Below are positions 1 through 3,000 of a stretch of DNA of 64,000 nt, one piece after another (the stretch's first letter is position 1; each line of letters starts with the position of its first letter). Made by a program: the position numbers. The DNA is from a virus (lineage: Duplodnaviria; Heunggongvirae; Uroviricota; Caudoviricetes): IMG/VR virus record IMGVR_UViG_2778261457_000003, positions 1 through 64,000 of that record. One strand, 5' to 3'.

Positions 1-3000
1 ATATCTACCTAGATATAAAAGATACTTTAGGTATTGAAAAAATTGAGAAATTAAGAGGAGTTCTTCACAATGATCGCTACGATTACAATCATGAGTCGAT
101 AAACAGAATTCAACATATACGCTCTCATGAAGTGCAACAATTGCAGCTAACGGATCTTTTCATTGGTGCGTTAGGCTACGTTCATCGAGGAATGAATAGC
201 AACGCGGGAAAAATCCAAGTCATAAACAGGATAAAATCACATACAAACAGGGAGTTACTAAAAAGCACTCTTCCAACAGAAAGTAAATTTAATATTTTCG
301 TGTGGGAGGCTCGCTGATGCTTCAAATGCCAGATTTATTGTACTTCAATGGAAGTTGGCAAAAGTATATAGACGATGTATATGATGTTGTCAGAGAAGAC
401 ATTTTAATCTCTAATATAACGTTTAAGGGTCTCCCTGTTCGATTACGTTATTCACCGGAATATGATGGGAAAGAGTTCGGATTTTGGCATTTAGTATCAG
501 AGGGAAAAATAGAAGAAGAACGAATACCTGATCTTGAACGGTGTAAGCGGATCCGCTGGATCGCGCATATGATAAGGAATTATGACCATTGCGATATATC
601 ATGTTGGTCTGAAAGACGAAGACAAACTGAAGAATGGGTAATCTGGAACGAGCATGAAAACTACGTTGTTGTGCTATCCGAACGTAGAGACTATTGGCTT
701 CTCAAAACAGCCTATATTGTAACTTATAACAGTAAAATCAGAACTCTCAAACAAAGCAGAAAAAGAGCGCTTGGGACATAAAAAGCTGAACCCGACACAC
801 ATTGCTATGTATCGGGTTCGATCGCTCTTTCTACACATGGTAGATGAGTAAGGTAAATCTAACCGATCTACTTTAGCTTTTCAATAGCTAGCTATAACTT
901 TCCGCACATATTCTTATGATAATCCCCAAAAGAGCGGTATGGTTTTCTCATACTTTTCTGCGCAGAGGCGCACACTTATCCAACAATAACAAATGTAATT
1001 CTTTGTTATCCCTAAGTATTTCGACACACCAATATCGTAACGTGTTCACTTCAAGTGTAGCCAGCACCTTATGTCGAAAAACCCCCTCCCCTACACATAA
1101 TGATGGATGACATTCTGCCAAGACACATAACCATGTATTGGCATCATAGAGAATCCAATAATGTTCATCTGAAATAGTTATGCATCCAATTATTTCGAAT
1201 CTTCTTTCTATCGTCTCAGGAGAGTATGAAAAATCAATTTCCATAACATGCTCAAAATCTATCTATACCGGCATAATTTAAGCACAAAAAAGCTCCCGAA
1301 GGAGCTTAAAAATACAAGGGATGGCTCTTAATCCCAATCAATCCAGTTGTAGACGATACGAAGTGACGGGCGCACAGCGGCAGTCACATCTTCGGTACTA
1401 AAGTCGATTGCATCACTGTAGATTTTGCAGTCCAACATTTCAATTGTTGTAGCAGCTTTTGTCACAGCGTTAACCCCGGAAGATTTGGATTCAGGGGTAG
1501 CAGCCATCGTGATATCAACATAGTCCTTCGCCGCAATGCGATCCTTAATGAACTGAAGAATATCGCCTTCGATAGTCTCCACGCACTGGACCTGGATTTC
1601 CCCAGAGTTTCGAATTGGACCGTGCTGGTTGAACTTCACACCATTCGGACCATAGTCCTCCACATCCTCGCGGGTCATTTCTGGGATTTGCGACGTGCGA
1701 ACCAGTACGCTGATATCTTCATGGCCTGCAAAAGTAAGCTGGAATTCAGAAGATACCAGTCGTTCGCCTTTGGCCGCGTTGGCAGTATAGCGGCCCTTAA
1801 TAAATTTACGGTTTCCCTTAGTGTTATTGTGCCCCATATAAAATCCTTTTACTGGAACGCCCGAACAATATCGGAGCTGTTATATATCGAAGAACCGGTC
1901 AACTGGAGGTTGACGGTGTTTTTCAGGAAATATCCATTACTGTCCCTTGGCGCATCGAGATCAAAACTTAAGTCCTGGATAGCGACATCGGTGATGTTGA
2001 TCCGGCGACCAATGTTTAGCGTCACACGTTCCGGGATTCGACCACCAACATTGGCCGCTTTTAGTTCCGGGCTAATCATGGCTGTCAACGCGGCGATAGC
2101 GCCTGAAACTTCAATGAATGGATTGTTCAAAGCAATGAAAGTTACGGGCAGCGTGAACGTCGGCGGTGTCCCCCCTTCCCAAACCATTAAGCTGTTCCAA
2201 CGGGCAACCGACGTTGTTTCAGTACCTACTTGCACAAACCCCCCCAGAGCGCCAGAAACAGACCCCATGGACATACCAGTAAACGGTGCTTCCCAATTCT
2301 GGGCCATGTTCATTGCCGCCCCCTGGCTGATATATCCTGTAACCTGATACTGAGAGTTCGTTAAAGTAACTTTCAGATATGGCGATACACCGTCAGCCTG
2401 GCTGTAAACCCCATAAGCTATAGGAGCCATTCAAGTTAAAGGCCGGAGTTCCCCGGCCTCCTCCTTTAGCCAAGGCGCTTACGGCGCAGTTTCATTGACT
2501 TTTTGCGGGCAAGTTTTGCCGCGCCAGTCTGGGCTTTTCGACGTGCTTTTTTCAGCGCCGATTTTTGAGCCGCAGTCAGACGTTTTTTACGCAGGCGTTT
2601 ACGGATGAGTTTGATCTCACCGTTACGAACAACCTTCTTAAATGCTTCAGTCAGCATTTCATCAGAAGTGCCAGCAACAACAAACGCCGCTTCCAGTTCG
2701 TCACGGTCGTCGCTATCTAAACCAGCGATAGAGGCACCAACATCAGCAGCTGCGTCGTCGTCTTCATCGTCAGCCAGTGCTTCGATCAGGTCATCATCTA
2801 CACCGCATGCTGCGAGGAAGTCAGCAACATTTGCCCATGCTTCGTTATAGGCATCGTCCTGTTCTTCTGTAACTTCGGAGTCGTCGTCATCAGAGATACC
2901 AGCGATAGCCTGAACGAAACCATCAAGGGAGTCGAAAGTCAGATCACCGCTATCAGCCCAGGCGAAAACGGCGTCGGCCGCATCACTCAACGCATTCTGC

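What the first reader, a model, noticed from the sequence alone, without database searches (positions are those of the whole stretch)
1..1320. AT-rich accessory module at the window start with two translationally coupled ORFs
The first ~1.3 kb is markedly AT-rich. It holds the 3' end of an ORF entering from upstream and a 154-aa ORF whose ATG overlaps the upstream stop (TGATG) behind a strong GGGAGG RBS, convergent on the tail operon terminator. Neither product matches a family I can name with confidence; the upstream fragment has a possible HEPN-like R-x6-H motif. Coupled gene pairs of foreign composition next to virion genes are typical of toxin-antitoxin or abortive-infection cargo.
Basis: partly seen in the sequence, partly recalled or inferred. 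Interest (0 to 1): 0.55.

Follow-up and report, generated by a model that had tools for sequence, protein, structure and literature searches.

The report
P1 rlfA-rlfB nuclease pair, defence candidate
The AT-rich start of the window is the known, dispensable rlfA-rlfB-pmgF variable region of a P1-like phage-plasmid. Its coupled gene pair is an RNase H-like enzyme plus a small conserved partner that other bacteria keep inside restriction-modification operons, so it is probably anti-phage cargo rather than a replication function, though this is untested.

Summary
Bases 1-1320 are 37.7% GC against 48.3% for the window. They carry the 3' end of an ORF and a 154-aa ORF joined by TGATG behind GGGAGG.

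The region is 100% identical to an E. coli P1-like plasmid and 94.5% identical to P1 rlfA-rlfB-pmgF. These genes are named but uncharacterised. They are nonessential by CRISPRi and absent from about 85% of P1-like plasmids.

Both proteins match PADLOC candidate system PDC-M04. In 79 of 80 genomes from many phyla the two genes are adjacent and usually overlap. In 33 of 80 they abut type I R-M genes. Other copies sit in type IIG, type III, DISARM or Hma systems, prophage ends or satellites.

The best reading is an unvalidated two-nuclease defence cassette carried as phage-plasmid cargo. The sequence and the family are already known; the function is still open.

The parts
1..317 (+). 3' part of rlfA (codons for residues 131-234 plus the stop at 315-317). 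The full 234-aa protein is a DUF3800 protein with an RNase H2-like fold.
304..309 (+). Shine-Dalgarno sequence GGGAGG for rlfB, 7 nt upstream of the ATG and inside the end of rlfA.
   Evidence: Sequence.
315..319 (+). TGATG stop/start overlap of rlfA and rlfB (translational coupling).
   Evidence: The same junction is annotated in P1. A possible partner start codon overlaps the DUF3800 stop in 65 of 78 homologous loci, 53 of them at -4 or -1.
317..781 (+). rlfB, 154 aa. Small alpha/beta protein of the PDC-M04B family, with invariant His58 and Arg75 and near-invariant Arg69, Arg78, Trp57, Trp81 and Trp97.
788..819 (.). Stable inverted repeat between the convergent rlfB and pmgF genes; likely a bidirectional terminator.
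   Evidence: 14-pair stem, U-tract on the minus strand. (-17.3 and -23.1 kcal/mol, z -3.95 and -5.36).
948..1244 (-). pmgF, 98 aa, function unknown. It is part of the AT-rich variable segment but not of the RlfAB cassette. It may be a short form of a 198-210-aa protein found at the same place in other P1-like phages.
   Evidence: ORF. P1 annotation. phrog_7349 E=1.1e-42 and phrog_7522 E=3.9e-11. Homologues found only in P1-like elements. N-terminal 65 aa are 42% identical to SJ46 J46_0016. Nonessential.
1290..1307 (-). Intrinsic terminator of bplB (tail/baseplate operon). This is the right-hand border of the variable region: homology to all P1-like phages resumes at 1286.
   Evidence: Records lacking rlfAB match only 1286-1400.

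Best explanation
Bases 1-1285 are the right-hand part of the repL-bplB variable cargo slot of a P1-like phage-plasmid. The slot carries the P1 genes rlfA, rlfB and pmgF.

rlfA-rlfB is a self-contained, translationally coupled two-gene cassette of the PADLOC candidate defence family PDC-M04.

Shown:
- RlfA is a DUF3800 protein with an RNase HII/H2-like fold and invariant acidic residues (D12, E13, D134/D137, Q178-x-x-D181), which are candidates for a metal-dependent nuclease site.
- RlfB is a small, always co-occurring partner with an invariant His and several Arg and Trp residues.
- The pair is horizontally mobile. It sits inside or beside R-M, DISARM or Hma operons and at the ends of prophages and satellites in many phyla.

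Inferred:
- The two proteins form a complex that acts on nucleic acid of an invading element.
- The model I commit to is that RlfA recognises or cleaves an RNA-DNA hybrid or structured nucleic acid made during foreign replication. RlfB then acts as a metal-independent RNase-type effector or activator, and infection is aborted or restricted.
- In P1 this would serve competition with other phages or plasmids, not P1 replication or morphogenesis.
For: Identity with P1 rlfA/rlfB/pmgF and with plasmid NZ_CP027575. Low GC. Both proteins hit PDC-M04 models strongly.

Pairing: a DUF3800 gene lies directly upstream on the same strand in 79 of 80 genomes; the one exception is cut by a contig end. Start/stop overlap is conserved.

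Context: type I hsd genes lie within 600 nt in 33 of 80 loci, and on both sides in 15 of the 43 loci with full flanks. Examples come from Gammaproteobacteria, Chloroflexota, Bacteroidota and Nitrospirota. One locus has a DrmMI::DUF3800 fusion followed by an RlfB homologue next to Cas13a. Other loci have type IIG, type III, Hma or DUF1156/PLD-helicase neighbours. Enterobacterial copies sit beside RhuM/SymE, at the edge of an integrase/DUF927 island, and at a prophage end next to smpB.

PDC systems were defined by exactly this 'guilt-by-embedding' logic, and 7 of the 9 tested Hma-embedded sister candidates (HEC systems) reduced plaquing.

In P1 the genes are nonessential. The slot is one of eight variable low-GC regions. 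Only 99 of 678 P1-like plasmids and 8 of 19 phage records carry it.
Against: No experiment shows defence, toxicity or nuclease activity for PDC-M04, for any DUF3800 protein, or for P1 RlfA/RlfB.

P1 annotation places a C1 operator (Op55/Orlf) upstream, and a P1vir transcriptome groups rlfA/B with early lytic genes. The pair may therefore be repressed in lysogens, which would be odd for prophage-encoded defence.

In P1 the pair is not embedded in an R-M system. I did not compute a background rate for R-M adjacency.
Confidence: 0.55

Rival explanations
1. Lytic-replication accessory, the historical P1 annotation ('possibly associated with lytic replication'). RlfA would be an RNase H-like enzyme that processes the transcript/R-loop at oriL inside repL to make or remove primers. 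RlfB would be its cofactor.
For: The genes lie immediately downstream of repL/oriL. A C1 operator (Op55/Orlf) sits at the start of the intergenic region. They are co-induced early with repL in P1vir infection. The RNase H2-like fold suits RNA-DNA hybrid processing.
Against: They are nonessential for P1 plaque formation by CRISPRi. About 85% of P1-like plasmids keep repL and bplB but lack this pair. The pair is obligately linked in bacteria of many phyla with no RepL nearby, and is typically embedded in R-M, DISARM or Hma operons. Its composition is foreign compared with repL: rlfA 35% GC, rlfB 38% GC, repL 45.5% GC.
Confidence: 0.15
2. Toxin-antitoxin-like addiction module that stabilises the plasmid prophage. 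RlfB would be a RelE/colicin-D-like RNase toxin and RlfA its neutraliser, with no role in phage defence.
For: Two coupled genes sit on a low-copy plasmid prophage. The best structural matches of RlfB are type II TA and bacteriocin RNase toxins. Neighbouring TA genes occur in some loci: MazE/PIN in L004 and SymE in L101.
Against: RlfA is far more conserved than RlfB. It has an intact enzyme-like invariant set and no DNA-binding or disordered antitoxin features. Neither protein gives a TA family hit in Pfam or NCBIfam. P1 already has phd-doc. Most P1-like plasmids do without the pair. The fold match is not significant by Foldseek.
Confidence: 0.1
3. Accessory or selfish cassette of restriction-modification-type systems rather than an autonomous defence. 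It might be a regulator or repair factor for R-M-inflicted damage, or a mobile cassette whose nuclease promotes its own insertion into such operons. The P1 copy would be a stray passenger.
For: The pair lies next to methyltransferase/helicase-based systems of several types: I, IIG, III, DISARM and Hma. One locus has a covalent fusion of DUF3800 to DrmMI. The distribution across phyla is patchy.
Against: The cassette also occurs alone, away from any R-M genes. In 25 of the 43 loci with full flanks no hsd gene lies within 8 kb, and it occurs alone in P1 and in L007. It has no recombinase or transposase partner and no terminal repeats were seen. Payne et al. screened PDCs against mobilome databases.
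Confidence: 0.08

Closest known systems
Bacteriophage P1 rlfA-rlfB-pmgF (GenBank AF234172, nt 51740-53370; P7 rapA-rapB)
   Same: 94.5% nucleotide identity over 1-1400. Same gene order, same TGATG junction, same 154-aa and 98-aa products, and the same flanks (repL and Op55 upstream, bplB downstream).
   Different: This is a divergent allele, about 5% different from P1 and at most 98.3% identical to most E. coli copies. It is 100% identical only to plasmid NZ_CP027575.
PADLOC phage defence candidate PDC-M04 (Payne et al., bioRxiv 10.1101/2024.01.29.577857)
   Same: Both proteins match the A and B models (E=1e-95 and 9e-52). The genes are adjacent, on the same strand and in the same order. Homologues are embedded in type I R-M and DISARM systems, as in the family definition.
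   Different: The P1 copy is not embedded in a defence system but sits in a phage-plasmid cargo slot. The family itself is a prediction with no reported experimental test.
Other DUF3800 systems: retron type VII (RT + DUF3800), CRISPR-linked TPR-DUF3800 (Cas12a2/Cas12a3) and Csx32 of Cas13 CASK loci; DUF3800-associated RNA motifs
   Same: Same Pfam domain and RNase H-like fold. All occur in defence or mobile-element settings. In all of them the function of the domain is unknown.
   Different: The partners differ (RT, TPR, kinase module) and none has an RlfB-type protein. Retron type VII DUF3800 lacks the Q of QxxD, which RlfA keeps. No Rfam DUF3800 RNA motif, or any other Rfam family, was found around rlfA.
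RNase HII / RNase H2A / RNase HIII (type 2 RNase H)
   Different: There is no detectable sequence relationship: the PDB profile search gave nothing better than E=0.08, to unrelated proteins. RlfA has extra invariant Cys and His residues (C11, C15, H16, C32) and many other invariant positions, and it has an obligate small partner.
PrrC anticodon nuclease in the EcoprrI type I R-M locus (works-like comparison; from my own knowledge)
   Same: A nuclease gene nested inside an hsd operon. Payne et al. cite PrrC as the archetype of a system found almost only embedded in type I R-M. It suggests a second-line or guard role.
   Different: PrrC is a single ABC-ATPase-nuclease protein unrelated in sequence and fold. 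RlfAB is two proteins and also occurs alone.
RelE/ParE/YoeB/HigB/MqsR/BrnT type II toxins and colicin D / CdiA-CT tRNases (BECR-type RNases)
   Different: Foldseek is not significant and there is no Pfam or PDB sequence match. RlfB has extra N- and C-terminal helices. The conserved residues lie mostly in the helical part. The upstream partner is not an antitoxin-type protein.

Membership tests
PADLOC PDC-M04 (candidate defence system) | Protein A matches a PDC-M04A HMM | tested here: met
   PDLC04353 E=1e-95, residues 5-233 against profile positions 3-228 of 232
PADLOC PDC-M04 (candidate defence system) | Protein B matches a PDC-M04B HMM | tested here: met
   PDLC04357 E=9e-52; 11 PDC-M04B models hit
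PADLOC PDC-M04 (candidate defence system) | The A and B genes are adjacent on the same strand | tested here: met
   TGATG overlap at 315-319; same arrangement in 79 of 80 homologous loci
PADLOC PDC-M04 (candidate defence system) | Anti-phage activity | not testable with these tools
   No published test found
DUF3800 (Pfam PF12686) | Score above the Pfam gathering threshold | tested here: met
   54.2 bits against a cutoff of 21, E=3.5e-14, residues 8-189
DUF3800 (Pfam PF12686) | N-terminal DE motif and C-terminal QxxD motif (as described in PMC7736814) | tested here: met
   D12-E13 and Q178-L-T-D181, all invariant in 30 homologues. Only QxxD lies inside the window (RlfA residues 131-234).
Type 2 RNase H (RNase HII/H2A/HIII) | RNase H fold | tested here: met
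Type 2 RNase H (RNase HII/H2A/HIII) | DEDD catalytic carboxylates at superposable positions | tested here: inconclusive
   Invariant D12, E13, D134, D137 and D181 exist, but residue-level superposition was not available. Published work calls the DUF3800 site 'rearranged' or DEED.
Type 2 RNase H (RNase HII/H2A/HIII) | Sequence-family membership (Pfam RNase_HII or a PDB sequence match) | tested here: not met
   No Pfam hit other than DUF3800; no RNase H hit in PDB sequence or profile searches
HEPN nuclease | Conserved Rx4-6H motif | tested here: not met
   R165 is kept in 14/30 and H172 in 24/30 homologues. The invariant neighbours are Q167, S171, L177, Q178 and D181.
HEPN nuclease | All-alpha-helical HEPN fold | tested here: not met
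   The model is alpha/beta with seven strands (five in the core sheet). The motif spans strand 163-168. The best folds are RNase H and PIWI.
Type II toxin-antitoxin pair | Small antitoxin with a DNA-binding or disordered neutralising domain, encoded upstream of the toxin | tested here: not met
   The upstream protein is a 234-aa, well-folded, enzyme-like DUF3800 protein
Type II toxin-antitoxin pair | Toxicity of one partner, rescued by the other | not testable with these tools
   Needs expression assays
RelE/ParE-colicin D (BECR) RNase superfamily, for RlfB | Fold similarity to solved members | tested here: inconclusive
RelE/ParE-colicin D (BECR) RNase superfamily, for RlfB | Sequence-profile match to a member family | tested here: not met
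   No Pfam or NCBIfam hit. PDB phmmer and profile searches gave only E>=0.35 noise.
P1 replication or morphogenesis genes (historical labels rlf = 'replication-linked function', pmg = 'putative morphogenetic function') | Required for lytic growth | tested here: not met
   Published CRISPRi data score rlfA, rlfB and pmgF as nonessential, whereas the neighbouring bplB, pmgG, 21, 22 and 23 are essential. The pair is absent from most P1-like elements.

The most novel reading that the evidence does not exclude
RlfA-RlfB is a real, mechanistically new two-nuclease immune module. In this reading an RNase H2/PIWI-like enzyme senses RNA-DNA hybrids or a small nucleic-acid guide or trigger. It then licenses a previously unrecognised His/Arg RNase (RlfB) to shut down the cell or destroy the invader. 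It would act as a back-up ('guard') to restriction-modification-type systems, and P1 would have captured it to fight rival phages and plasmids. Phage P1 in E. coli K-12 would then be a ready-made genetic model for the long-unexplained DUF3800 domain, which is also found with retrons, Cas12a2/Cas12a3 and Cas13 loci and eleven orphan RNA motifs.
Probability: 0.3. Interest if true: 0.65.

Novelty: already known. Interest (0 to 1): 0.35.

Why it matters
The genes have been in the P1 genome annotation since 2004 under a 'replication-linked' label that the evidence here does not support. Linking them to the PDC-M04 candidate defence family gives the label a better-founded replacement.

It also points to an easy experiment in the best-known E. 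coli phage-plasmid. That experiment would test one of 145 untested 'guilt-by-embedding' defence predictions. It could also give a first function to DUF3800, a widespread RNase H-like domain that recurs in retron, CRISPR and ncRNA contexts.

For annotation, it shows that RefSeq's 'oxidoreductase' and 'replication protein' names for RlfB are unsupported.

Tried and rejected
- **HEPN reading of RlfA.** Rejected by motif conservation and fold.
- **Rfam scan.** I used E-value mode on L001 3400-6500, which covers the whole rlf region and its flanks, looking for DUF3800-associated or other RNA motifs. Nothing came up at E<=1.
- **Sequence searches against solved structures.** These gave only noise for RlfA, RlfB and their profiles.
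- **NCBIfam.** No hits for any of the three proteins.
- **RlfB fusions to other domains.** Six longer family members had no Pfam domains. Their N-terminal extensions look like miscalled starts and are not fusions to DUF3800.
- **Chromosomal E. coli copies.** I checked whether they show the pair moving independently of P1. The two examined are integrated or co-assembled P1-like elements with the same flanks.
- **PADLOC and Pfam on alternative cargo of the repL-bplB slot.** The 198-210-aa pmgF-like proteins have no PADLOC family, and the only Pfam hit is a sub-threshold GNAT match. One SJ46 ORF is an Ail/Lom outer-membrane protein.
- **PmgF homologue search.** It found only P1-like copies.
- **Literature.** Searches for 'PDC-M04' and for rlfA/rlfB function found no experimental characterisation. 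The 2004 P1 genome paper is not in the library.
- **One context look-up (P0016).** It was not on record.
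Full report
**1. What is in the sequence**

Bases 1-1320 are 37.7% GC against 48.3% for the whole 64-kb window. That is the 1st percentile of all 1320-bp windows. Only one other stretch (about 51.5-53.6 kb) is comparably AT-rich.

An ORF enters from upstream in frame 3 and stops at 315-317. A 154-aa ORF starts at the ATG at 317, which overlaps that stop (TGATG). It lies 7 nt downstream of GGGAGG and ends at 781.

A 98-aa ORF on the minus strand at 948-1244 lies between rlfB and the tail operon. The plus-strand pair therefore converges on this gene, not on the tail operon. 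A stable inverted repeat at 788-819 sits between them. It folds at -17.3 kcal/mol on the plus strand and -23.1 kcal/mol with a U-tract on the minus strand. The terminator of the baseplate/tail gene bplB (1328-1837, minus strand) is a separate hairpin at 1290-1307.

**2. Identity**

Bases 1-1400 are 100% identical to E. coli plasmid NZ_CP027575. They are 94.5-95.8% identical to phages P1, P7 and JL22. In those phages the genes are annotated rlfA (P7: rapA), rlfB (rapB), pmgF and bplB.

The upstream sequence recovered from the identical plasmid completes the first ORF to 234 aa. The window holds residues 131-234. Upstream lie repL, the annotated C1 operator Op55/Orlf and the predicted promoter PrlfA. 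This region differs from P1 at only 3 of 201 positions.

The P1 record says only 'possibly associated with lytic replication' for RlfA and RlfB, and 'putative morphogenetic function' for PmgF. A genome-wide CRISPRi screen scored all three as nonessential, while the adjacent bplB, pmgG, 21, 22 and 23 are essential.

The repL-bplB interval is a recognised variable, low-GC region of P1-like phage-plasmids.
- Only 8 of 19 phage records and 99 of 678 plasmid records carry the whole segment. The rest match only from base 1286 onward.
- Alternatives in the slot include an IS605-family transposase plus a 198-aa protein (RCS47). SJ46 has an Ail/Lom outer-membrane protein plus 83- and 210-aa proteins. 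phi456 and Ro157c2YLVW have almost nothing there.
- In complete E. coli genomes the rlfAB pair occurs in 121 of 5,426, almost always on P1-like plasmids. The two chromosomal hits I inspected are P1-like elements with the same flanks.

**3. RlfA**

Pfam assigns DUF3800 (54.2 bits against a cutoff of 21). The family is very strongly conserved. There were 5,464 hits in the word-indexed search. Proteins from Bacteroidota, Nitrospirota and Chloroflexota are still 47-55% identical.

Thirty homologues share 46 invariant columns. These include the N-terminal D12-E13 and C-terminal Q178-x-x-D181 motifs that define DUF3800. They also include D134 and D137 and a Cys/His set, in which C15, H16 and C32 are invariant and C11 is kept in 29 of 30.

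This agrees with published remarks that DUF3800 is RNase H-like with a rearranged site.

The HEPN idea is rejected. The R-x6-H string is residues 165-172 and spans a beta-strand. Its R is kept in 14/30 and its H in 24/30 homologues.

No biochemical function is known for any DUF3800 protein, including Csx32 of Cas13 CASK loci. No DUF3800-associated or other Rfam RNA motif was found around rlfA.

**4. RlfB**

Pfam and NCBIfam give nothing. PHROGs labels it 'replication protein' and RefSeq 'oxidoreductase'. I found no support for either name.

A profile search of 1.84 billion representative proteins finds 1,767 clusters at E<=1e-3. Nearly all are single-domain proteins of about 150-180 aa.

Conservation across 146 members, all at most 50% identical to each other:

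| Residue | Kept in |
|---|---|
| H58 | 100% |
| R75 | 99% |
| F56 | 97% |
| R69 | 96% |
| W81 | 96% |
| R78 | 95% |
| W97 | 94% |
| W57 | 92% |

The AF2 model (pLDDT 89.6) has an N-terminal helix, a short strand, two helical segments, a four-stranded antiparallel sheet and a C-terminal helix.

I therefore treat 'RelE/colicin-D-like RNase' as a lead, not a result. The invariant His and Arg residues fit a metal-independent RNase or a phosphate-binding site.

**5. The pair as a unit, and where it lives**

Both proteins hit the PADLOC models of candidate system PDC-M04 (A: E=1e-95; B: E=9e-52).

PDC systems were defined by Payne et al. as gene cassettes found embedded in BREX, DISARM or type I R-M operons. 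The study proposed 145 such candidates and did not test them. [quoted passage not shown] I found no paper mentioning PDC-M04.

My own survey reproduces and extends the embedding.
- A pattern scan of one genome per species found 440 genomes encoding an RlfB relative. They span Alpha-, Beta-, Gamma- and Deltaproteobacteria, Nitrospirota, Planctomycetota, Chloroflexota, Cyanobacteria, Bacteroidota, Acidobacteriota, Verrucomicrobiota, Actinomycetota and Saccharibacteria.
- In the best 80 loci a DUF3800 gene lies directly upstream on the same strand in 79. The exception is truncated by a contig end.
- A possible partner start codon overlaps the DUF3800 stop codon in 65 of 78 loci, 53 of them at -4 or -1. 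I chose the start nearest the stop, which biases towards short gaps.
- Type I hsd genes lie within 600 nt of the pair in 33 of 80 loci. They lie on both sides in 15 of the 43 loci that have at least 5 kb of flank each side.
- One Algoriphagus locus reads hsdM/S - reverse transcriptase - DUF3800 - RlfB-like - hsdR - 325-aa ORF - pAgo.
- In one metagenomic contig the DUF3800 domain is fused to the C-terminus of a DISARM DrmMI-like methyltransferase. An RlfB homologue follows, next to two Cas13a genes.
- I sampled seven loci without hsd genes. In four the immediate neighbours are a type IIG enzyme, a type III Mod-Res pair, HmaC, or a DUF1156 methyltransferase plus PLD-helicase.
- Enterobacterial chromosomal copies sit beside RhuM and SymE, at the edge of an integrase/DUF927 island, or at a prophage end next to smpB. 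One copy is isolated.

**6. How it most likely works**

Shown: this is a mobile, obligately paired, translationally coupled cassette. It encodes an RNase H2-like protein with an intact-looking acidic site and a small partner with an invariant His/Arg set. It is preferentially nested in self/non-self discriminating restriction systems and in mobile-element cargo slots. It is dispensable for P1.

Inferred: the two proteins work as a complex on nucleic acid of an invader. I commit to one model. RlfA recognises or cleaves an RNA-DNA hybrid or structured intermediate. RlfB then acts as an RNase-type effector or activator, and the outcome is restriction or abortive infection. In P1 this would serve inter-element competition.
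- About 0.55 for the defence-cassette reading as a whole.
- About 0.3 for that particular division of labour.

The main caveat concerns expression. Op55/Orlf and early-lytic co-expression with repL raise the possibility that the pair is silent in lysogens. The operator lies about 94 bp upstream of the predicted promoter, so its role is unclear.

Rival explanations:
- A replication accessory that processes R-loops at oriL (0.15). Location and fold favour it. Dispensability, absence from most P1-like elements and the non-phage distribution count against it.
- A TA-type addiction module (0.10).
- An R-M accessory or selfish cassette (0.08).

**7. PmgF**

PmgF has homologues only in P1-like elements. 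Its first 65 residues are 42% identical to the N-terminus of the 210-aa protein that occupies the same position in SJ46 (phrog_7522). It is therefore a separate, P1-lineage-specific gene of the variable segment and not part of the RlfAB cassette. Its function remains unknown.

**8. Verdict**

- **Observation.** The AT-richness, the incoming ORF and the coupled 154-aa ORF are confirmed. The missed gene, the wrong terminator geometry and the unconserved R-x6-H motif make the verdict 'partly confirmed'.
- **Interpretation.** Accessory cargo of the defence/abortive-infection type is partly supported by guilt-by-association. The HEPN and classical TA details are not supported.
- **Novelty.** The sequence is an already known P1 region and the pair is an already catalogued, but untested, defence candidate, so novelty is low.
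- **Interest.** What remains interesting is that no function is known for DUF3800 or for RlfB. P1 offers a direct and cheap way to test one.

Noticed in passing
window ~51461-53640: This is the second strongly AT-rich stretch of the window (1320-bp windows down to 35% GC). It lies between mat and lxc, in the ulx region. Only 2 of 19 P1-like phage records cover it fully; others carry different genes there, such as a RelA/SpoT-family protein. It is probably another variable cargo slot.
   Followed up: partly
window ~6600-7200: GC dips to 37-38% just past gene 23, at the parB end of the partition region. Unlike the rlf region, it is conserved at 99% or more in most P1-like records.
   Followed up: partly
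L011/L012 (Algoriphagus) 3183-14617: A type I R-M operon carries, between hsdM/S and hsdR, a reverse transcriptase (RVT_1, 502 aa) followed by the DUF3800 and RlfB-like pair. A 325-aa ORF and a pAgo (Piwi) gene follow hsdR. This could be an RT-linked variant of the cassette.
   Followed up: no
L010 3321-8471: A 1556-aa DrmMI-like methyltransferase has a C-terminal DUF3800 (PDC-M04A) domain. It follows an MZB-helicase gene, is followed by an RlfB homologue, and lies next to two Cas13a genes.
   Followed up: partly
L016 (Salmonella phage SJ46) 2769-3284: The ORF annotated 'replication protein RepL' (J46_0018, 171 aa) in the repL-bplB slot is an Ail/Lom-type outer-membrane beta-barrel protein by Pfam (E=2e-24). 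This looks like a misannotation.
   Followed up: yes
window 948-1244 (pmgF); L016 3775-4407; L015 3775-4371: PmgF (98 aa) shares only its N-terminal ~65 residues (42% identity) with the 210-aa SJ46 protein at the same position (the RCS47 slot holds a 198-aa protein there). PmgF may be a truncated or short form of a polymorphic gene.
   Followed up: partly
window 1849-2430 (pmgG); L001 6849-7347: The window has an intact 193-aa pmgG ORF. The RefSeq annotation of the 100%-identical plasmid lists only a 240-nt fragment plus an opposite-strand 213-nt ORF. This is an annotation inconsistency, not a sequence difference.
   Followed up: no
RlfA residues 11-32 (upstream of the window; L001 4643-4708): C15, H16 and C32 are invariant and C11 is near-invariant (29 of 30). 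They flank the catalytic-looking D12-E13 pair. This may be a metal-binding cluster that canonical RNase HII lacks.
   Followed up: no
RlfB homologues in RefSeq (e.g. P0002, P0007-P0009): RefSeq names many RlfB homologues 'oxidoreductase', and PHROGs and RefSeq name P1 RlfB 'replication protein'. No domain or fold evidence supports either name.
   Followed up: yes
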